Below, piece by piece: positions 13,666 to 50,993 of a DNA stretch of 64,000 bases. Where the stretch lies: IMG/VR virus record IMGVR_UViG_3300021962_009794. The stretch is one strand, 5' to 3'. The notes beneath the pieces were generated by a model. It did not search any database, was not told the origin of the DNA, and saw only the letters and a program-made list of their open reading frames with translations. Within the stretch, counting starts at the first letter, position 1; the number at the start of each line of letters is the position of its first letter. A program made the position numbers and the translations under genes. The stretch comes from a virus. Its lineage: Duplodnaviria; Heunggongvirae; Uroviricota; Caudoviricetes.

Positions 13666-13972
13666 AGATTTATGTGATTGTGGTAAAGTAGCAGTTTGGT
13701 GCTATATGCCAGGTTACTCTGACGGTAATCCGGATCATTGTGACGAATGCGTTCCTAGGGGATGCGATTGTAACCACAATTACGTCGATCCTAATTCATA
13801 CCATCCGGCACTTAATGAGCCTTACTTACCTGAAGGCGAGGAAGGAAAAGACTGGATGTGGATAGAGAAAGACGTTATGTGGACTACTCTAGATGACAAA
13901 GGAAGAGAATATCCATGCTGCGAGTACATGTACTCAGAAAACGGCTGGGACAAAGAAGAACATGAAGAATAA
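13649..13972 (+). CDS. hypothetical Cys-rich small protein
   Basis: CDCGKVAVWCY...HCDECVPRGCDCNH metal-binding-like cysteine pattern. Confidence 0.45.
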   Translation: MSIAGKDLCDCGKVAVWCYMPGYSDGNPDHCDECVPRGCDCNHNYVDPNSYHPALNEPYLPEGEEGKDWMWIEKDVMWTTLDDKGREYPCCEYMYSENGWDKEEHEE

Positions 13973-14195
13973 AATATATTTTTACGTAGGCATCATCTCA
14001 TCAGATGAGAGGGATTTGAAAGAATTCATTAACAACATGATCGAAGACAGCGATCAAAAGTATTTTGTTGAAGTCATTGATCAATATGACGATCCGTATG
14101 GATATTACACTTACCAGCTAAGAGGGTCTTGGGATGCTTATAAATGTTTCCTAGACAGACCTTTTGTTAGATCATTAACCCACCATGAAGAATAA
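13962..14195 (+). CDS. hypothetical small protein (start MKNKIYFYVG)
   Basis: ORF 13893..14195 trimmed to the ATG at 13962 that overlaps the upstream stop. Confidence 0.45.
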   Translation: MKNKIYFYVGIISSDERDLKEFINNMIEDSDQKYFVEVIDQYDDPYGYYTYQLRGSWDAYKCFLDRPFVRSLTHHEE

Positions 14196-18469: not shown

Positions 18470-18679
18470 ATGGAAACCGATTTAAGAACTTACAAGAACT
18501 CTACCAGAAGAGCATCCGAAGTAATAACAGTTGAAGATTTTAACATCGCAGTTAGTAACAAAGAGCTAACTAAGTGGGATGGTCACGGATACTGGGTAAA
18601 AGATGGATTGGAATCAGAAGACATGGTTTTCTCTGATCCCCAGCTAGATGCAACCCACGTTTCATGGTACAACAAATAA
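18470..18679 (+). CDS. hypothetical small protein
   Basis: ORF. Confidence 0.4.
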   Translation: METDLRTYKNSTRRASEVITVEDFNIAVSNKELTKWDGHGYWVKDGLESEDMVFSDPQLDATHVSWYNK

Positions 18680-18689
18680 AATAGGAAAT

Positions 18690-19307
18690 ATGCCAACAGG
18701 ATACACAGCAGGAGTGGTTGACGGAACCACCAAAACATTCAAAGATTTTGCAAAGATTTGCATGAGAGCTTTCGGGGCAGCGATTCATATGAGAGACGAA
18801 CCTCTGAGCAAGAAATATGAACACAGGGTTCCAGACGATTTCTATTACGAAAGAATTGAGGAAGCAAAGAAAAATCTTGCAGAACTCGATACGCTACCTG
18901 ACGAGCACTTCATTAAAGAGGAGCACGAGAAAATAAAGGATGATATCAGATACTACTCCGAAAAAATGAGAAAGGTTAAAGAAGCTAGAGAGAGATTAGA
19001 TTCCTTGCTGGAAGAAACATCTGAGTGGGAACCACCAACCACAGATCATGTGGAATTTAAGAATTTTATGATTCAACAACTCACCGAAACAATAAAATAT
19101 GATGGTGACGTTGAATATTATGAAGGAGAAATTGAGCGTCTTTATAAAAAATTAGATACCCCTATTGATCTGGACTCTGTTAAGAAAGATCTCAGAGAAT
19201 CTTACGAAGCTAATCTAAATAGGAGTCAAAAAAGTCTTGATGAAGAAATCGAAAGATGTAAAAAATCCCACGATTGGGCGGATCAATTATTAAAATCAAT
19301 AGAATAA
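18690..19307 (+). CDS. hypothetical coiled-coil protein
   Basis: ORF-track ORF 18648..19307 trimmed to the ATG at 18690 after the upstream stop. Confidence 0.5.
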   Translation: MPTGYTAGVVDGTTKTFKDFAKICMRAFGAAIHMRDEPLSKKYEHRVPDDFYYERIEEAKKNLAELDTLPDEHFIKEEHEKIKDDIRYYSEKMRKVKEARERLDSLLEETSEWEPPTTDHVEFKNFMIQQLTETIKYDGDVEYYEGEIERLYKKLDTPIDLDSVKKDLRESYEANLNRSQKSLDEEIERCKKSHDWADQLLKSIE

Positions 19308-20399: not shown

Positions 20400-20534
20400 A
20401 TGAAAGGAATTAGTGAGGTTTTTACAACAACGGAGATTACATTATTCTTCGGAGGATTATTTTTAGGTATTTCAATTGGAATGTTTATTGGATACAAGTG
20501 TGCAAAATACTTAGTGGAGAAAGAAGATGAATAA
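20400..20534 (+). CDS. hypothetical small single-TM protein (44 aa)
   Basis: MKGISEVFTTTEITLFFGGLFLGISIGMFIGYKCAKYLVEKEDE fills the gap; below the ORF-track cut-off. Confidence 0.35.
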   Translation: MKGISEVFTTTEITLFFGGLFLGISIGMFIGYKCAKYLVEKEDE

Positions 20535-21087
20535 GAACCTAAAAGATATAAGCGATTGGTTCGAAAGTGAGGAAGGTAAAGCTTCATTGGAGAAGTACGC
20601 GGAAAAACTCAGAAACGATATGAACCATAAAATGGTTTGGATTGATAGGTTTAAGAAGTGGGCTGAACCCGATATGGATGCAGCAATCGAAAAACTTTGT
20701 GCATGGTATGAATCTGACAAGTATCGGGACAGGGAGTATAAGAGAGGATACGAGCCAAGAGAACGACTTCTGTGGTTAGCATTCAACTATGCGGAGGAGC
20801 ATTGCAAAGAGTGTGACGACGAAGAGTATTTGAATGACTTCACAGGTCAAGCATACTACATCGGATCATACGTTATCCAGGTGATGCACGGACAAGGTTC
20901 AGTATTAAGAGTCGATAAACTTAAAGGACCAATCAAACCGAGCAGAAAGGAAAGAATCGCATTAATGATCGAGAGCCGAATAAAATCAGAGTACACTAAG
21001 CATTCAAAGAGTTTACCTGATGATTGGGCTAAGATCGCATCTCACAAAATCTTAGCCTCTTTGGAGGATCTGGAAAACAGTATATGA
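20527..21087 (+). CDS. hypothetical protein (186 aa)
   Basis: ORF. Confidence 0.55.
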   Translation: MNKNLKDISDWFESEEGKASLEKYAEKLRNDMNHKMVWIDRFKKWAEPDMDAAIEKLCAWYESDKYRDREYKRGYEPRERLLWLAFNYAEEHCKECDDEEYLNDFTGQAYYIGSYVIQVMHGQGSVLRVDKLKGPIKPSRKERIALMIESRIKSEYTKHSKSLPDDWAKIASHKILASLEDLENSI

Positions 21088-35249: not shown

Positions 35250-35558
35250 ATGAAGAACACAATCTTTTTTACCGTAATTTTTTTATGCCTTTTAGCAACT
35301 TCCTGCGTATCAGAAACAGGAAAGGCAATAGATAAGGCTGTCGACGGGGATGTTATAGTTTCAGGTAACGACACTTTTGACATAAAGGTTGACACTCATA
35401 CAGTGATTAGCTCAGAGAGATTACCACCAAGAAATGTTATGGAAGAGGCATCTCCGGTTTGGCTAAACACTACAGATCTGGACAGCACATTCAAATCAAG
35501 AACCTACATACCTATCGGATCTACACAGGTATATAAAACAGCTAAAAGAAGAAAATAG
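35250..35558 (+). CDS. putative lipoprotein
   Basis: MKNTIFFTVIFLCLLATSC signal peptide plus lipobox. Confidence 0.5.
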   Translation: MKNTIFFTVIFLCLLATSCVSETGKAIDKAVDGDVIVSGNDTFDIKVDTHTVISSERLPPRNVMEEASPVWLNTTDLDSTFKSRTYIPIGSTQVYKTAKRRK

Positions 35559-35561
35559 ATT

Positions 35562-35819
35562 ATGGATTTTAAATTTGTAACAGTCTCTCTTGAAACAATT
35601 CTAGGCGAAAACGATGAGTTCGACAAATCTTTTTTTGCCTATCTTGAAGAATATTCTATATCACATAAAATCATAGACGAATCTGCAACCGAATGGCCTA
35701 CGGTAGAATACACAGGCGGTCCTATATCAATAACAAACATGTTAAAGGAAAGGTTTGGAATGTCACAGGAAGAGATTGACGAATTATACCCAGAAATCAA
35801 CAACACACAAAATGTATAA
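35562..35819 (+). CDS. hypothetical small protein
   Basis: ORF. Confidence 0.45.
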   Translation: MDFKFVTVSLETILGENDEFDKSFFAYLEEYSISHKIIDESATEWPTVEYTGGPISITNMLKERFGMSQEEIDELYPEINNTQNV

Positions 35820-44203: not shown

Positions 44204-44567
44204 CAATTTTTGCAAGCAAGAAATACAGAACAAAGAAGGAGGCAGAAGCCATATAGAATAAGATGTCTGTGATTAAATACGAACCCGTCCACTTGGTAAC
44301 GATCGCAAAGAGTGCGTCGAATCCCAAGGGATTGAAAAACGTCGCCAGTATGAGTGCTATTGTTTTTAGTCTCTTTAATTTCATTAGTCGTTTTACTGCT
44401 GGGATCGTCCATAGTGGAAAATATTTTAACGTTTTAGCTCCTTAGTGGAAAAAATTCGCGGGATTCGAGTTATCCAATCCTATATATTGGAAAAGTTTAT
44501 CTTTTTTTGGAGAAAAATTTTTTTAAACCGAAACGGTTTGTTAAATTTGAGTATAATTAATAACAAA

Positions 44568-44642
44568 GGTCCCTTAGCTCAGTTGGTCAGTAGCGGCGGC
44601 CTCATAAGCCGAAGGTCACAGGTTCAAGTCCTGTAGGGACCA
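44568..44642 (+). tRNA. tRNA-Met (anticodon CAU; could be elongator Met or a lysidine-modified Ile2)
   Basis: Hand fold: acceptor GGTCCCT/AGGGACC; anticodon stem GCGGC/GCCGA with loop CTCATAA; T-arm ACAGG-TTCAAGT-CCTGT; discriminator A; no encoded CCA. Confidence 0.65.
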
Positions 44643-48008: not shown

Positions 48009-48088
48009 GGTCCTAGAGCTTAAACCGGCGTGGAAGTCGAGTCTGCCTCTAAAACAGATAGCATCGGGTTCAAATCCTGCTAGGATCA
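48009..48088 (+). tRNA. tRNA-like element with CUA triplet in an anticodon-loop-like context (possible amber-reading suppressor; non-canonical fold)
   Basis: Acceptor GGTCCTA/TAGGATC (one G-T wobble); T-loop TTCAAAT; internal stem GTCTG/CAGAT closing a C-T-CTA-A-A loop (positions 48047-48053, CTA at 48049-48051); the D-arm is overlong. Confidence 0.35.
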
Positions 48089-48111: not shown

Positions 48112-48182
48112 AGTCAGGTGGCGGAATTGGTAGACGCTAGTTATTTATACGAAAGTTACAGGTTCGAATCCTGTCCTGACTA
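48112..48182 (+). tRNA. tRNA-like element (Leu-type D arm, aberrant anticodon region)
   Basis: Acceptor AGTCAGG/CCTGACT; D-arm GCGG-AATTGGTAGA-CGC identical to a bacterial tRNA-Leu; T-arm ACAGG-TTCGAAT-CCTGT; region between D and T arms is only about 20 nt and has no 5-bp anticodon stem (only a small AC-GAAA-GT hairpin). Confidence 0.4.
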
Positions 48183-48422: not shown

Positions 48423-48506
48423 AGTCAGGTAGCGCACGGGTTAGCGCGTTGGTGAGCAATAAAAAGCAAAAGACAAAGGTAACAGGTTCGAGTCCTGTCC
48501 TGGCTA
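48423..48506 (+). tRNA. tRNA-like element (paralog of 48112..48182 with aberrant, extended anticodon region)
   Basis: Acceptor AGTCAGG/CCTGGCT; D-arm GCGC-ACGGGTTA-GCGC; T-arm ACAGG-TTCGAGT-CCTGT; a 33-nt A-rich stretch sits where the anticodon and variable arms should be. Confidence 0.4.
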
Positions 48507-48519
48507 CAAAAATAAAATT

Positions 48520-48984
48520 ATGAGGCAGTTAAAAATAGAATTGGAAGACATTTCACACATCACAGGATCGATATCTGACTATCAGTACTTACCTAACATT
48601 TTCACCCAACTAACAAGTGGAGAAGAAAGAGAAGGGTTAGTAAAATTTTGGAATGAGAAGGTGGTTAAAAGAGAAAAAGATACTTGGCTGAACCGACAAG
48701 AAATTAACTTTTGGCATGAAATCAATCTTCATGTGGTTAAACAAACTTGGGGTAATACCTCAGGAGGATGGCAAGGTATAGGAGGATCTGCAATGACTTC
48801 TACATATACCGTTATCATAGAGAATGATTGGTATGATTTTGCCTGCATTTATTATAATGGAAAGCTGGCTTACGTTTGTGAAATGGACGACAAATACAAA
48901 GAACATGTGACAAATGGATATAGAACTTTGCCAGGTTGCGGTAGCTGCAGAGAAAAATTGACAGTACTTTACAAGTCAAGATAA
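48520..48984 (+). CDS. hypothetical protein (154 aa; weak C-type-lectin-like WQGIGG...NGKLAYVCE pattern)
   Basis: ORF. Confidence 0.5.
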   Translation: MRQLKIELEDISHITGSISDYQYLPNIFTQLTSGEEREGLVKFWNEKVVKREKDTWLNRQEINFWHEINLHVVKQTWGNTSGGWQGIGGSAMTSTYTVIIENDWYDFACIYYNGKLAYVCEMDDKYKEHVTNGYRTLPGCGSCREKLTVLYKSR

Positions 48985-49034
48985 GAAGGAAATGAAACAT
49001 TTTTAAAAACAAATATATAATAAGCATGAACTAG

Positions 49035-49397
49035 ATTAAATTTCAACAACCGAAACTTGTCATCGTAACAAGACAAGACATCAACCCAGGTTACCAAGTG
49101 GTTCAGTCCACGCATTCAATCGCCGACTTTGCTTACGAGCATCCAGAAATATTCGGCAAATGGAAAGAAGAGTCAAACTCTATAATTTGTCTTTCCGCAA
49201 AATCACAAGAACACTTATTAAAACTTCATGAGAAATATTCTCATCTAACAGAGGCATCATTGTTTTTTGAGCCTGACGTAGACGAGTATACATCATTGTG
49301 CCTTTATGGATCGCCAGAGATTCGTAAAGGCCTTTCTCATTTGCCCCTATGTAATCCTAAAAATCAAATAAAAAAAGAAAGCTATGAAAACAAGTGA
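49035..49397 (+). CDS. PTH2-family peptidyl-tRNA hydrolase with uncertain start
   Basis: KLVIVTRQDINPGYQVVQSTHS...IICLSAKSQEHLLKL...SLCLYGSP aligns with the Pth2 fold. The first canonical start is a GTG at 49098, inside the conserved N-terminal strand. The in-frame ATG at 49026 is followed two codons later by an in-frame TAG (49032). Confidence 0.5.
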   Translation: MKFQQPKLVIVTRQDINPGYQVVQSTHSIADFAYEHPEIFGKWKEESNSIICLSAKSQEHLLKLHEKYSHLTEASLFFEPDVDEYTSLCLYGSPEIRKGLSHLPLCNPKNQIKKESYENK

Positions 49398-50013
49398 ATT
49401 TATTAAAATGCTACAAGAAGCAGATCCGAGTGGAGAAGCACACATCAGAATGGAAGGAGGTGTTCCCTTTGCAGCAGAACTCAAACCAGGATACTGGGAT
49501 GGCCCTTACAGTTACATCGACGAAGATGGAAATTGGAACTACAGCACACAGGGTAACAAAGTAGACATCCACTGCAAAGACGTTTATGATATGGTTTACG
49601 ATATGGTAGACGCCTATCGAATTCCTGAGTGGAAAGATGTTGAAGCAAAATTCAAATTCAGTCTGGGATATTCCATAGAATCACAGAGAAAGGAAAGAGA
49701 AAATGGGGTACTCAAAGAGGCTAAGGAAGCTTATGAATCTGCGGTTTCAAACGAAAGAAGATTTGAGACCGATGGCGAGGAGAGAGCTTCGACTAACTCA
49801 GATAAAGGATGGACATGGTTCCAAAATAAACTAGTAGATGACCCAGAGCTCAGACCGAACATGCACCATTATTATACCTGGAAAGTCTATGACGAGAATG
49901 GAAAGGATCAAGGGTCTAATCCACACAATGTCCAATCAGTTTACAAATCAGGACTTTTCGAAAAACACGACAATGGACTAATGGAAGGTTACTACCAATG
50001 GATTAAAAAATAA
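49384..50013 (+). CDS. hypothetical protein (209 aa)
   Basis: ORF. Confidence 0.55.
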   Translation: MKTSEFIKMLQEADPSGEAHIRMEGGVPFAAELKPGYWDGPYSYIDEDGNWNYSTQGNKVDIHCKDVYDMVYDMVDAYRIPEWKDVEAKFKFSLGYSIESQRKERENGVLKEAKEAYESAVSNERRFETDGEERASTNSDKGWTWFQNKLVDDPELRPNMHHYYTWKVYDENGKDQGSNPHNVQSVYKSGLFEKHDNGLMEGYYQWIKK

Positions 50014-50456: not shown

Positions 50457-50993
50457 ATGAATAGGGCAGATAAAATAACGGATCTAATGTACGGATGCAA
50501 AGCTAATGATCCAAAAGCCCAAAGAGAACTATACGATCTACTTAGCCGAAAAATGGCAGCATACATTTCAAGATATGTAGATTCAAAAGAAGATGCTGAA
50601 GAAATAGTTAATACGGGATTCTGTAGGGTTTTTCGGAAAATACATCTTTATAGCGGAATAGGGGATTTCGAAGGATGGATTTCTGTTATAATAAAAAGAG
50701 CAGCCATAGATCATCTAAAGCGTAAACTGAAAGCAAGAGAATCGATGAATGTAGTGGAGTTAAAAGAATATGAAAACTTTAAGCATCCAGAAATCGGAGA
50801 TAGCGTGGATTACATCTATAAGAGTATGGAAGGACTACCCAAGAAAACAAAAAGAGTAATGGATCTTTTTATTAGAGGATTTAAGCACAGTGAGATTGGA
50901 GATATAATAGGGATTAGCGAGGGAACATCTAAGTGGCACGTTCACGAGGCCAAAAAGATTATGCTAGGTAGGATAACAAAAAAGGCGGGATAA
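50457..50993 (+). CDS. sigma-70-family (ECF-like) RNA polymerase sigma factor
   Basis: Region 2-like GFCRVFRKIHLY...GWISVIIKRAAIDHLKRK; region 4 HTH GFKHSEIGDIIGISEGTSKWHVHEAKKIM. Confidence 0.65.
   Translation: MNRADKITDLMYGCKANDPKAQRELYDLLSRKMAAYISRYVDSKEDAEEIVNTGFCRVFRKIHLYSGIGDFEGWISVIIKRAAIDHLKRKLKARESMNVVELKEYENFKHPEIGDSVDYIYKSMEGLPKKTKRVMDLFIRGFKHSEIGDIIGISEGTSKWHVHEAKKIMLGRITKKAG

What the first reader, a model, noticed from the sequence alone, without database searches (positions are those of the whole stretch)
49026..49397. PTH2-type peptidyl-tRNA hydrolase whose conserved N-terminus lies upstream of any canonical start; in-frame ATG-AAC-TAG precedes it
The Pth2-like alignment clearly begins at KLVIVTRQD (49053 onward), but the first ATG/GTG/TTG in that frame is the GTG at 49098, inside the first conserved strand. 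Upstream in the same frame is ATG(49026)-AAC-TAG(49032)-ATT-AAA-TTT-CAA-CAA-CCG-AAA-CTT-GTC. Three explanations fit. One is non-canonical AUU initiation at 49035. Another is amber read-through or suppression from the ATG at 49026. The third is a recently inactivated gene. Given a nearby tRNA-like element displaying a CUA anticodon-like loop, programmed amber suppression is worth testing. Against that, TAG is used as a normal stop elsewhere in the window. A PTH2 enzyme, an archaeal/eukaryotic type that releases peptides from peptidyl-tRNA, in a phage of a bacterium is itself unusual. It also fits the ribosome-rescue theme.
Basis: partly seen in the sequence, partly recalled or inferred. Interest (0 to 1): 0.6.

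Follow-up and report, generated by a model that had tools for sequence, protein, structure and literature searches.

The report
Stop-codon-gated phage Pth2 gene with suppressor tRNA
This phage's peptidyl-tRNA-hydrolase-like gene really does begin ATG-AAC-TAG, and the same early stop codon, matched by a phage suppressor tRNA nearby, recurs in dozens of large phages, so it looks like a built-in translational switch, not an error or a dead gene.

Summary
In detail: ATG 49026, AAC, TAG 49032-34, ATT 49035. The PTH2-like homology starts upstream of the first canonical in-frame start, GTG 49098.

The TAG is not an error or a pseudogene lesion.
- Nearly every homologue I read at the DNA level begins ATG-(0-3 codons)-TAG just before the first conserved strand. 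These share 34-94% identity and include cultured phages of Tenacibaculum, Acinetobacter and Cronobacter. Mycobacterium phages Bxz1 and Myrna have ATG/GTG-TAG directly before their annotated GTG start.
- A tRNA with anticodon CUA lies on the same strand within 5 kb in 36 of 53 headed genes and in 0 of 9 head-less ones.
- In the window it is a non-canonical, covariation-supported tRNA at 48009-48088.
- The stop co-varies with the tRNA: a TAA head has a UUA tRNA (L057), and a TGA head in Atu_ph07 has a UCA tRNA.
- The window is otherwise standard-code. TAG ends 12 of 91 ORFs and no other gene carries an in-frame TAG.

Best reading: translation starts at ATG 49026 and needs the phage's own amber suppressor, which gates Pth2-like synthesis. 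The purpose of the gate is unknown. PTH2 in jumbo phages is already known. I found no paper describing the gate.

The parts
49026..49397 (+). Full pth2-like coding sequence as proposed: ATG, AAC, TAG (decoded), then 120 sense codons, stop TGA 49395-97. This gives 123 codons including the amber.
   Evidence: Sequence and translation. Pfam PTH2 23.9 bits. Profile against PDB Pth2 chains, E = 1e-4. AF2 model plus Foldseek, top hit 2zv3 Pth2. Homologues start at the same ATG-x-TAG.
49026..49034 (+). Conserved 'head': start codon, one sense codon, amber codon (ATG AAC TAG). The amber itself is 49032-49034 and is followed by ATT (purine at +4).
   Evidence: Identical in L001-L005. ATG-(1-3 codons)-TAG in 47 of 62 distinct IMG/VR homologues, always followed by a purine. 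Also present in pT24, ME3, GAP32, Bxz1 and Myrna.
49035..49097 (+). N-terminal coding stretch between the amber and the first canonical start. It includes the first beta-strand (KLVIVTR).
   Evidence: Substitutions against 8 relatives fall 12/3/35 on codon positions 1/2/3; 27 synonymous and 17 non-synonymous codon changes. The AF2 model places a strand at residues 8-11 of the ATT-started numbering.
48009..48088 (+). Non-canonical tRNA with anticodon CUA (reads UAG). It has an 8-bp acceptor stem, an 8-nt linker, a 5-bp D stem, a 5-bp anticodon stem with loop CUCUAAA, and a 4-bp T stem.
   Evidence: Rfam tRNA 26.5 bits. Nine family members in relatives. RNAalifold cloverleaf with compensatory changes in 16 of 22 pairs. 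99% of cells paired; 0 of 500 shuffles reach the observed value on four of the five measures (1 of 500 on the fifth); slid controls reach 34-47%. The G1-C72 pair is invariant, so it is elongator-type.
49012..49021 (+). AATATATAA / TATAAT-like motif ending 5-6 nt before ATG 49026. This is the phage's usual context for gene starts.
   Evidence: ATATATA occurs 29 times in the window. 22 copies lie within 60 nt upstream of an ORF start, 13 of them 4-6 nt before the ATG. A promoter-like ATGAAA-18-TATAAT spans 48992-49021. The motif is conserved upstream of the ATG in relatives.
49384..50013 (+). Downstream 209-aa gene overlapping the pth2-like stop by 14 nt. It is syntenic with pth2-like in relatives. 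Function unknown.
   Evidence: ORF list. 72-77% identity next to pth2-like in L007, L008 and L014 and in L001-L005. No Pfam or PHROG family.

Best explanation
The gene is a divergent PTH2-fold protein, a putative peptidyl-tRNA hydrolase. Its translation starts at ATG 49026. Codon 3 is a UAG that must be decoded as a sense codon by the phage's own amber-suppressor tRNA (anticodon CUA, 48009-48088, same strand, about 1 kb upstream).

Without that tRNA the ribosome makes only Met-Asn and stops. With it, the full 123-codon protein is made, including the first beta-strand. The early stop is therefore a translational gate. It ties synthesis of the Pth2-like protein to the presence and activity of the suppressor tRNA, in competition with release factor 1.

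This is not general genetic-code reassignment, because elsewhere in the window TAG behaves as an ordinary terminator.

Shown:
- the stop is conserved at this position;
- the sequence upstream of GTG 49098 is under coding selection;
- a cognate suppressor tRNA is linked to the gene and on the same strand;
- stop-codon identity co-varies with the tRNA anticodon.

Inferred:
- that read-through actually happens;
- the inserted residue. Gln is likely, because bacterial GlnRS is known to recognise CUA anticodons, and the source pipelines used code 15;
- that placing the stop at codons 2-5 favours the tRNA over RF1 and wastes little synthesis;
- the purpose of the gate. Candidates are timing, or dose-matching the clean-up enzyme to the amount of nonsense suppression.
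For: 1. Head conservation.
- ATG AAC TAG ATT is identical in five independent contigs, while downstream codons carry substitutions.
- ATG-x-TAG-ATT in L006, L008-L015 and L017-L020.
- It is also found in 460-735 kb megaphages and in cultured phages pT24, ME3 and GAP32.
- Bxz1 and Myrna have ATG/GTG-TAG directly before the annotated GTG.
- Survey: 47 of 62 distinct IMG/VR homologues have ATG-(1-3 codons)-TAG, and 3 more have the TAG 8-18 codons in.

2. All other Gln codons of the gene are CAA or CAG. Only this position is TAG.

3. Downstream initiation cannot explain the family.
- The codon after TAG is GTA or GTT in 15 of 47 heads.
- In many heads it lies one codon before K-L-V-T-V-T-R.
- 49035-49097 evolves as coding sequence, 12/3/35.

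4. ATG 49026 has the phage's normal start context, ATATATA 4-6 nt upstream, as at 13 other genes.

5. Suppressor linkage.
- A CUA tRNA lies within 5 kb in 36 of 53 headed genes against 0 of 9 head-less ones, Fisher p = 1.5e-4.
- All 51 such tRNAs are on the gene's strand, and 7 lie within 200 nt upstream.
- pT24 has an annotated tRNA-Sup 2.6 kb upstream.
- ME3 has an annotated CTA tRNA 0.44 kb upstream.
- Bxz1 and Myrna have a CUA tRNA just downstream.

6. Covariation of stop and anticodon.
- L057 has ATG ACT TAA ATT and a UUA tRNA 0.8 kb upstream.
- Atu_ph07 Pth2 has ...CAC TTT TGA ATT, and its only suppressor tRNA is UCA (PMC6102473).

7. The window's CUA RNA is a real structured tRNA.

8. 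The window is not recoded.
- Coding coverage is 0.91 under both code 11 and code 15.
- TAG ends 12 of 91 ORFs.
- There is no other amber-headed ORF.
Against: - There is no direct evidence of read-through: no proteomics and no ribosome profiling.
- In this window alone, AUU at 49035 could serve as a weak start.
- In Bxz1 and Myrna the Shine-Dalgarno spacing fits the GTG after the TAG better than the ATG or GTG before it. There the TAG may lie just outside the translated frame, and a start-stop element remains possible.
- 17 headed genes show no CUA tRNA within the DNA available, though many of these sit on contigs under 1.5 kb.
- XacN1 has two CUA tRNAs but neither of its Pth2-type genes has a head.
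- The window tRNA scores below Rfam's gathering threshold and ARAGORN misses it. Its aminoacylation is unproven.
- The canonical catalytic Lys of Pth2 is replaced by Tyr, so the enzymatic activity is itself an inference.
- TAG-terminated genes in the window show no adaptation to a suppressor. Back-up stops are no closer than after other stops, p = 0.98.
Confidence: 0.72

Rival explanations
1. Ordinary genome-wide stop-codon reassignment (genetic code 15, TAG = Gln), as in Lak, Agate or crAss-like phages. On this reading the TAG at codon 3 is just one recoded Gln codon with no special role.
For: The closest phage-database relatives are 460-735 kb uncultured megaphages. One of them, L023, has a second in-frame TAG inside the gene. 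The source pipelines translated these genes with code 15. TAG recoding with suppressor tRNAs is established in phages of Bacteroidota (bioRxiv 10.1101/2021.08.26.457843).
Against: In 64 kb the only in-frame TAG is this one. TAG ends 12 of 91 ORFs, and code-11 and code-15 coding coverage are equal. All other Gln codons in the gene are CAA or CAG, while this one position is TAG in lineages down to 34% identity, including cultured phages annotated with the standard code. The same position holds TAA or TGA where the phage's suppressor is UUA or UCA.
Confidence: 0.1
2. A two-codon mini-ORF (AUG-AAC-UAG) ends normally, and the Pth2-like protein is started separately at the adjacent AUU by termination-reinitiation or weak non-canonical initiation. 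The mini-ORF would act as a uORF-type regulator, perhaps sensing peptidyl-tRNA drop-off in the way lambda bar minigenes cause it. No suppression is involved.
For: The codon after the stop is a near-cognate or cognate start in most heads: ATT 21, ATA 4, ATG 1, ATC 1, and GTG in Bxz1 and Myrna, where SD spacing favours it. Two-codon minigenes are known to produce peptidyl-tRNA, the substrate of Pth (established knowledge of lambda bar minigenes).
Against: GTA or GTT (not start codons) follow the stop in 15 of 47 heads, and AAC, AGC or ACA in 4 more. The conserved first strand often begins one codon later. This model does not explain why a cognate suppressor tRNA sits beside the gene, or why the stop codon changes with the tRNA anticodon.
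Confidence: 0.1
3. The gene is a pseudogene, or is expressed only as the truncated 99-aa product from GTG 49098, or the TAG is an assembly or sequencing error.
For: Standard-code gene callers report the 99-aa ORF (P0001 and P0003).
Against: The head is identical in independent assemblies and is conserved across more than 60 loci. The stretch upstream of the GTG is under purifying selection in frame. The truncated product would lack the first strand and the R-x-D segment that align with Pth2.
Confidence: 0.03

Closest known systems
Stop-codon recoding in phages (TAG read by phage suppressor tRNAs; Lak, Agate, crAss-like; Borges et al., bioRxiv 10.1101/2021.08.26.457843)
   Same: A phage-encoded CUA tRNA is required to translate phage genes that carry in-frame TAG. 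In the proposed role, genes with in-frame stops cannot be expressed until the suppressor is active.
   Different: There, 26-71% of genes carry in-frame stops, concentrated in structural and lysis modules. Here a single codon at the very start of one gene (two gene families in relatives) is affected, and the genome region otherwise uses TAG as a terminator. The paper does not mention a hydrolase or pth gene (0 occurrences).
prfB (release factor 2) autoregulation through an in-frame UGA near the 5' end
   Same: A conserved, early in-frame stop codon in a gene of the termination and peptidyl-tRNA-hydrolysis machinery. Expression depends on competition at that stop codon.
   Different: prfB bypasses the stop by +1 frameshifting and senses its own product. 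Here the frame is unchanged, a dedicated trans-acting suppressor tRNA is encoded next to the gene, and no feedback by the product has been shown.
PTH2 peptidyl-tRNA hydrolases of jumbo phages (Iyer et al. 2021, PMC7824862)
   Same: The same protein family and the same genomic company: tRNA arrays, RNA ligase and Pnk, tmRNA. The proposed role is releasing peptides from peptidyl-tRNA during ribosome rescue.
   Different: That work treats them as ordinary genes. The conserved head stop codon and its pairing with suppressor tRNAs are not described, and several GenBank annotations are truncated because of it.
Orphan suppressor tRNAs of standard-code jumbo phages (XacN1, PMC5852040; Atu_ph07, PMC6102473)
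   Same: Phages that otherwise use the standard code carry a CUA or UCA suppressor tRNA.
   Different: [quoted passage not shown] Here a specific target is proposed. It holds for Atu_ph07 (a TGA head in its Pth2) but not for XacN1.

Membership tests
PTH2 peptidyl-tRNA hydrolase (Pfam PF01981) | Sequence match to the family model above the curated threshold | tested here: met
   23.9 bits against a cut-off of 23, E = 5e-5, covering only profile positions 2-71 of 115. A profile of 28 homologues hits Pth2 chains 24bt, 2zv3, 1wn2 and 1rzw at E = 1e-4 to 9e-3. The match is marginal.
PTH2 peptidyl-tRNA hydrolase (Pfam PF01981) | Pth2 alpha/beta fold | tested here: inconclusive
   AF2 model pLDDT 72, pTM 0.61. 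The only Foldseek hits with probability above 0.25 are M. jannaschii Pth2 2zv3 chains (probability 0.92-0.99), but TM is only 0.39-0.50 and E about 6e-3.
PTH2 peptidyl-tRNA hydrolase (Pfam PF01981) | Catalytic Lys of the G-K motif and catalytic Asp (K18 and D86 in Sulfolobus Pth2, recalled from the literature) | tested here: not met
   The Lys position aligns with Tyr (GYQ). It is GQQ or GQA in other members. An invariant F-E-P-D may supply the Asp, but this part lies outside the HMM alignment. The canonical-type phage Pth2 of Atu_ph07 and Phosso keeps G-K and also carries a head stop.
PTH2 peptidyl-tRNA hydrolase (Pfam PF01981) | Hydrolysis of peptidyl-tRNA | not testable with these tools
   No biochemical data are available.
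Genome-wide TAG-recoded phage (genetic code 15) | Phage-encoded suppressor tRNA with anticodon CUA | tested here: met
   48009-48088.
Genome-wide TAG-recoded phage (genetic code 15) | Many genes with in-frame TAG; coding density rises under code 15 | tested here: not met
   Coverage is 0.91 under both codes. The pth2-like gene is the only convincing in-frame TAG. This applies to the 64-kb window only; the rest of the genome is unseen.
Genome-wide TAG-recoded phage (genetic code 15) | TAG not used as a terminator | tested here: not met
   12 of 91 ORFs end in TAG, with no excess of nearby back-up stops.
Canonical bacterial/phage tRNA (Rfam RF00005) | Score above gathering threshold; detection by ARAGORN; 7-bp acceptor stem, 2-nt linker, 5-bp T stem | tested here: not met
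   26.5 bits against 29. ARAGORN does not find it. The consensus has an 8-bp acceptor stem, an 8-nt linker and a 4-bp T stem.
Canonical bacterial/phage tRNA (Rfam RF00005) | Cloverleaf supported by covariation, 7-nt anticodon loop with U33, T-loop GTTCRAnTC | tested here: met
   16 of 22 pairs show compensatory changes and 99% of cells are paired; controls reach 34-47%. The loop is CUCUAAA.
uORF with termination-reinitiation | A start-competent codon at or next to the uORF stop in all members | tested here: not met
   GTA, GTT, AAC, AGC or ACA follow the stop in 19 of 47 heads.

The most novel reading that the evidence does not exclude
The 'orphan' suppressor tRNAs of large standard-code phages may be dedicated translational switches. 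Each would pair with a small set of genes for tRNA-end enzymes: Pth2 or Pth2-like, and an HD-domain protein that is fused to Pth2-like in pT24. Each of these genes carries the cognate stop codon at codons 2-5. Their synthesis would then report the balance between suppressor tRNA and release factor in the infected cell. This tRNA-gene pair could also be the ambiguous intermediate from which whole-genome TAG recoding evolved in Lak-type megaphages.
Probability: 0.35. Interest if true: 0.88.

Novelty: new variant of a known kind. Interest (0 to 1): 0.8.

Why it matters
- It gives a concrete, testable target for phage suppressor tRNAs in genomes that are not recoded. At least one paper states this as unresolved (XacN1).
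- It shows that a translation-quality-control enzyme is placed under the control of a virus-encoded tRNA. This would be a natural tRNA-dependent genetic switch.
- It may represent the first step toward stop-codon reassignment in phages.
- It occurs in cultured, genetically tractable systems: Bxz1 and Myrna in M. smegmatis, ME3 in A. baumannii, GAP32 in Cronobacter, pT24 in Tenacibaculum, and Atu_ph07 in Agrobacterium.
- In practice, it exposes systematic N-terminal mis-annotation of these genes, and a tRNA family that standard tRNA finders miss.

Tried and rejected
- DNA-level search of the region in the phage collection found nothing.
- I first took the 'Q' at position 3 of database homologues (P0005, P0026, P0088, P0050, P0007) as independent evidence for TAG = Gln. 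It is not. Those Q's are TAG translated under code 15 by the source pipelines (translates_to_query = no).
- Other candidate in-frame TAGs in the window are upstream stops, adjacent genes (TAG ATT ATG) or antisense shadows: 35250-35819, 13674-14195, 18603-19307, 20413-21087, 44263-44526.
- I considered the idea that the CUA tRNA is an initiator reading UAG as a start and dropped it. The G1-C72 pair is invariant, there is no run of three G-C pairs in the window tRNA's anticodon stem, and the ATG before the stop is conserved.
- XacN1 was checked as a test case. Neither its Pth2-like ORF364 (an N-terminal fusion) nor its canonical Pth2 ORF295 has a head stop.
- Stenotrophomonas CM1, Aeromonas ZPAH1 and the Lak-A1/B8 paralogue also lack a head stop.
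- A test for back-up stops after TAG terminators was negative.
- My regex survey misses some members (L057, Bxz1, Myrna, GAP32), so its counts are a sample.

Full report
**1. The observation**

The sequence reads ATG (49026) AAC TAG (49032-34) ATT AAA TTT CAA CAA CCG AAA CTT GTC ATC GTA ACA AGA.
- The only canonical start in this frame after the TAG is GTG 49098. It gives a 99-aa ORF ending at TGA 49395-97.
- Translated from ATT, the product matches Pfam PTH2 at the threshold: 23.9 bits against 23, E = 5e-5, residues 7-70.
- ARAGORN finds only a tRNA-Met at 44568.
- Rfam finds three tRNA-like elements upstream of the gene. One of them, 48009-48088 (26.5 bits, below the gathering score), has the anticodon loop CUCUAAA, that is anticodon CUA.

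**2. Not an error, not a dead gene**

- Five independent metagenome contigs at 94% protein identity carry exactly ATG AAC TAG ATT, while downstream codons differ.
- In the 63 nt between the amber and the GTG, substitutions against eight relatives fall 12/3/35 on codon positions 1/2/3. There are 27 synonymous and 17 non-synonymous codon changes. This stretch is therefore translated and under purifying selection.
- In the AF2 model (pLDDT 72) it contains the first strand of the sheet. In the alignment to archaeal Pth2 it contains the K-x-V-I-V-x-R-x-D segment.
- ATG 49026 also has the phage's normal start context. ATATATA occurs 29 times in the window, and 22 copies lie within 60 nt upstream of an ORF start. 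13 of those lie 4-6 nt before the ATG, as here. A TATAAT-like hexamer ends 5 nt before the ATG.

**3. The stop codon is a conserved feature of the gene family**

- Database proteins that show 'Q' at position 3 (MNQIK..., MKQIN...) turned out to be TAG translated with code 15 by the source pipelines. They are not evidence for Gln. They do show that the TAG is conserved.
- ATG-x-TAG-ATT is present in IMG/VR contigs of 90-373 kb at 65-93% identity.
- It is present in 460-735 kb uncultured megaphages at 38-61% identity.
- It is present in the cultured Tenacibaculum phage pT24 as ATG AAA TAG ATA, at 34% identity.
- A survey of 80 IMG/VR loci (62 non-duplicate, down to 38% identity) gave the following:
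  - 47 have ATG-(1-3 sense codons)-TAG immediately before the conserved strand;
  - 3 more have the TAG 8-18 codons in;
  - 12 lack it, most of them from high-GC contigs.
- The codon before the TAG varies freely.
- The codon after it is ATT 21, GTA 10, GTT 5, ATA 4, and others 7. It always starts with a purine.
- GTA and GTT are not start codons. In many members the conserved K-L-V-T-V-T-R begins one codon later. Initiation after the stop therefore cannot explain the family.
- Further cultured phages:
  - Acinetobacter ME3 has ATG ACT TAG ATT and Cronobacter GAP32 has ATG GCA CAA TAG AAT.
  - Mycobacterium phages Bxz1 and Myrna have ATG TAG GTG and GTG TAG GTG, with GenBank starting the gene at the second GTG.
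- The same device occurs on canonical-type Pth2 genes, which keep the G-K motif. Agrobacterium phage Atu_ph07 has ATG ATT GGC GAA CAC TTT TGA ATT. Sinorhizobium phage Phosso has ATG AAG TAT TAG GTT.

**4. A cognate suppressor tRNA travels with the gene**

- ARAGORN finds a CUA-anticodon tRNA within 4 kb of most amber-headed genes.
- Where it finds none, a non-canonical 80-81-nt CUA tRNA is usually present. This holds for the window, L002, L008-L010, L017, L018, L033, L041 and L045. In several of these it lies 35-140 nt upstream of the ATG.
- That family folds into a cloverleaf with an 8-bp acceptor stem, an 8-nt linker, a 5-bp D stem, a 5-bp anticodon stem and a 4-bp T stem.
  - 16 of 22 pairs show compensatory changes and 99% of cells are paired.
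  - 0 of 500 shuffles reach the observed value on four of the five measures, and 1 of 500 on the fifth.
  - Slid controls reach 34-47%.
- In a regex sample of 62 distinct genes:
  - 36 of 53 headed genes have a CUA tRNA within 5 kb, against 0 of 9 head-less ones (Fisher p = 1.5e-4);
  - many of the 17 headed genes without one sit on contigs under 1.5 kb;
  - all 51 cognate tRNAs are on the gene's strand.
- pT24 has an annotated tRNA-Sup 2.6 kb upstream. ME3 has an annotated CTA tRNA 0.44 kb upstream. Bxz1 and Myrna have one just downstream.
- The stop and the anticodon co-vary.
  - L057 has ATG ACT TAA ATT and a UUA tRNA 0.8 kb upstream.
  - Atu_ph07 has a TGA head, and its only suppressor tRNA has anticodon UCA (PMC6102473).

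**5. Not general recoding**

- In the window, coding coverage is 0.91 under both code 11 and code 15.
- TAG ends 12 of 91 ORFs, with no excess of back-up stops.
- Every other candidate in-frame TAG dissolves on inspection.
- pT24's 50-kb region behaves the same way.
- Some megaphage relatives are recoded; L023 has a second TAG in the gene. The head may therefore predate full reassignment.

**6. A second gated gene**

- In 19 relatives an HD-domain protein of about 190 aa (phrog_14850, E = 7e-63; Pfam HD just below threshold) sits next to the pth2-like gene. It has its own ATG-(0-3 codons)-TAG-ATT head.
- In pT24 the Pth2-like and HD parts are fused behind a single head.
- The window has no HD homologue.

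**7. Mechanism**

- Most likely, translation starts at ATG 49026 and the UAG is read by the phage tRNA(CUA). Synthesis of the Pth2-like protein is therefore gated by suppressor activity in competition with RF1.
- The inserted residue is probably Gln, because bacterial GlnRS is known to recognise CUA anticodons. This is unproven.
- That termination on di- or tripeptidyl ribosomes is inefficient, so an early stop favours the tRNA, is an inference from minigene biology.
- The purpose is open. Possibilities are delaying the enzyme until the tRNA set is mature, or matching a peptidyl-tRNA clean-up enzyme to the level of nonsense suppression. tmRNA genes lie beside the module in L079, L088 and L095.
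- Caveats:
  - there are no expression data;
  - in Bxz1 and Myrna the SD spacing favours the GTG after the TAG;
  - XacN1 has CUA tRNAs but no headed Pth2 gene;
  - the catalytic Lys of Pth2 is Tyr here, and the fold match is modest.

**8. Comparison with what is known**

- PTH2 in jumbo phages is known (PMC7824862).
- TAG recoding with suppressor tRNAs is known.
- Orphan suppressor tRNAs in standard-code jumbo phages are reported with no identified target (PMC5852040).
- Six full-text searches found no paper that links a head stop codon in Pth2 genes to suppressor tRNAs. The library is incomplete, so prior description cannot be excluded.
- I class this as a new variant of a known kind: programmed stop-codon read-through through a virus-encoded suppressor tRNA, acting on a specific conserved site.

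Noticed in passing
window 48112-48182 and 48423-48506 (also L010 9002-9131, 9277-9363, 9483-9552; pT24 L025 27033-27111, 27400-27478): These are tRNA-like RNAs (Rfam tRNA 43 and 42 bits) with intact acceptor, D and T arms but no anticodon stem-loop. pT24's two 'tRNA-Undet' genes instead have a stem of about 10 bp capped by a UAU triloop. They sit between the CUA tRNA and the pth2-like gene. Their role is unknown.
   Followed up: partly
window-wide, e.g. 22111, 23688, 38188, 45159, 56595 (+) and 17088, 23228, 37879, 43296, 59259, 60840, 62566 (-): ATATATA lies 4-6 nt or 19-23 nt upstream of 22 ORF starts. It is probably a phage promoter or start signal, and it may give leaderless or very short-leader mRNAs.
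   Followed up: partly
window 50457-50993 (+): A phage-encoded ECF-like sigma-70 factor (Sigma70_r2 and r4_2) lies two genes downstream of the pth2-like gene.
   Followed up: no
L009 10348, L010 10771, L014 10335, L021 3995, L032 5300; pT24 L025 29084-30037: A second gene family, an HD-domain protein of about 190 aa, has the same ATG-x-TAG-ATT head in 19 loci. In pT24 it is fused to the Pth2-like domain. It is absent from the window.
   Followed up: partly
GenBank records LC168164 (BPT24_235), JN882285 (GAP32_397), KU935715 (ME3_195), MF403008 (AUZ95035.1), PV764938 (XYS97424.1), NC_011273 (MYRNA_86): The annotated CDSs start at internal codons because of the head stop, so they are N-terminally truncated. 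Myrna_86 is annotated tRNA-Ser, but ARAGORN reads its anticodon as CUA.
   Followed up: partly
L079 2287-2643, L088 331-694, L095 2359-2708: Phage tmRNA genes lie within about 2-4 kb of amber-headed pth2-like genes, alongside tRNA-Thr arrays and CUA tRNAs.
   Followed up: no
L087 5741-5899, L089 5300-5373, L093 4332-4407, L097 5306-5458: High-GC pth2-like loci without a head stop carry tRNAs with abnormal anticodon loops. ARAGORN reports them as '???' with 'tc', 'ta' or 'ttca'.
   Followed up: no
L110 3233-3305 (Lak-A1), L111 3356-3428 (Lak-B8): A tRNA with anticodon UUA (reads UAA) lies 0.7 kb upstream of a distant, head-less pth2-like gene in TAG-recoded Lak phages.
   Followed up: no
window 48520-48984 (+): A 154-aa ORF with no family lies between the tRNA cluster and the pth2-like gene. 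It is absent in the closest relatives L001-L003, where a tRNA 3' end abuts the head.
   Followed up: no
pT24 L025 44192-45244: The polynucleotide kinase gene is preceded in frame by ATG CTT TAG AAC TTA ATG. This could be coincidence or another gated tRNA-repair gene.
   Followed up: no
L118 (Sinorhizobium phage Phosso) versus L115 (Atu_ph07): These two Pth2 genes are 72% identical yet use different head stops, TAG and TGA. Whether Phosso carries a CUA tRNA was not checked. It would be a sharp covariation test.
   Followed up: no
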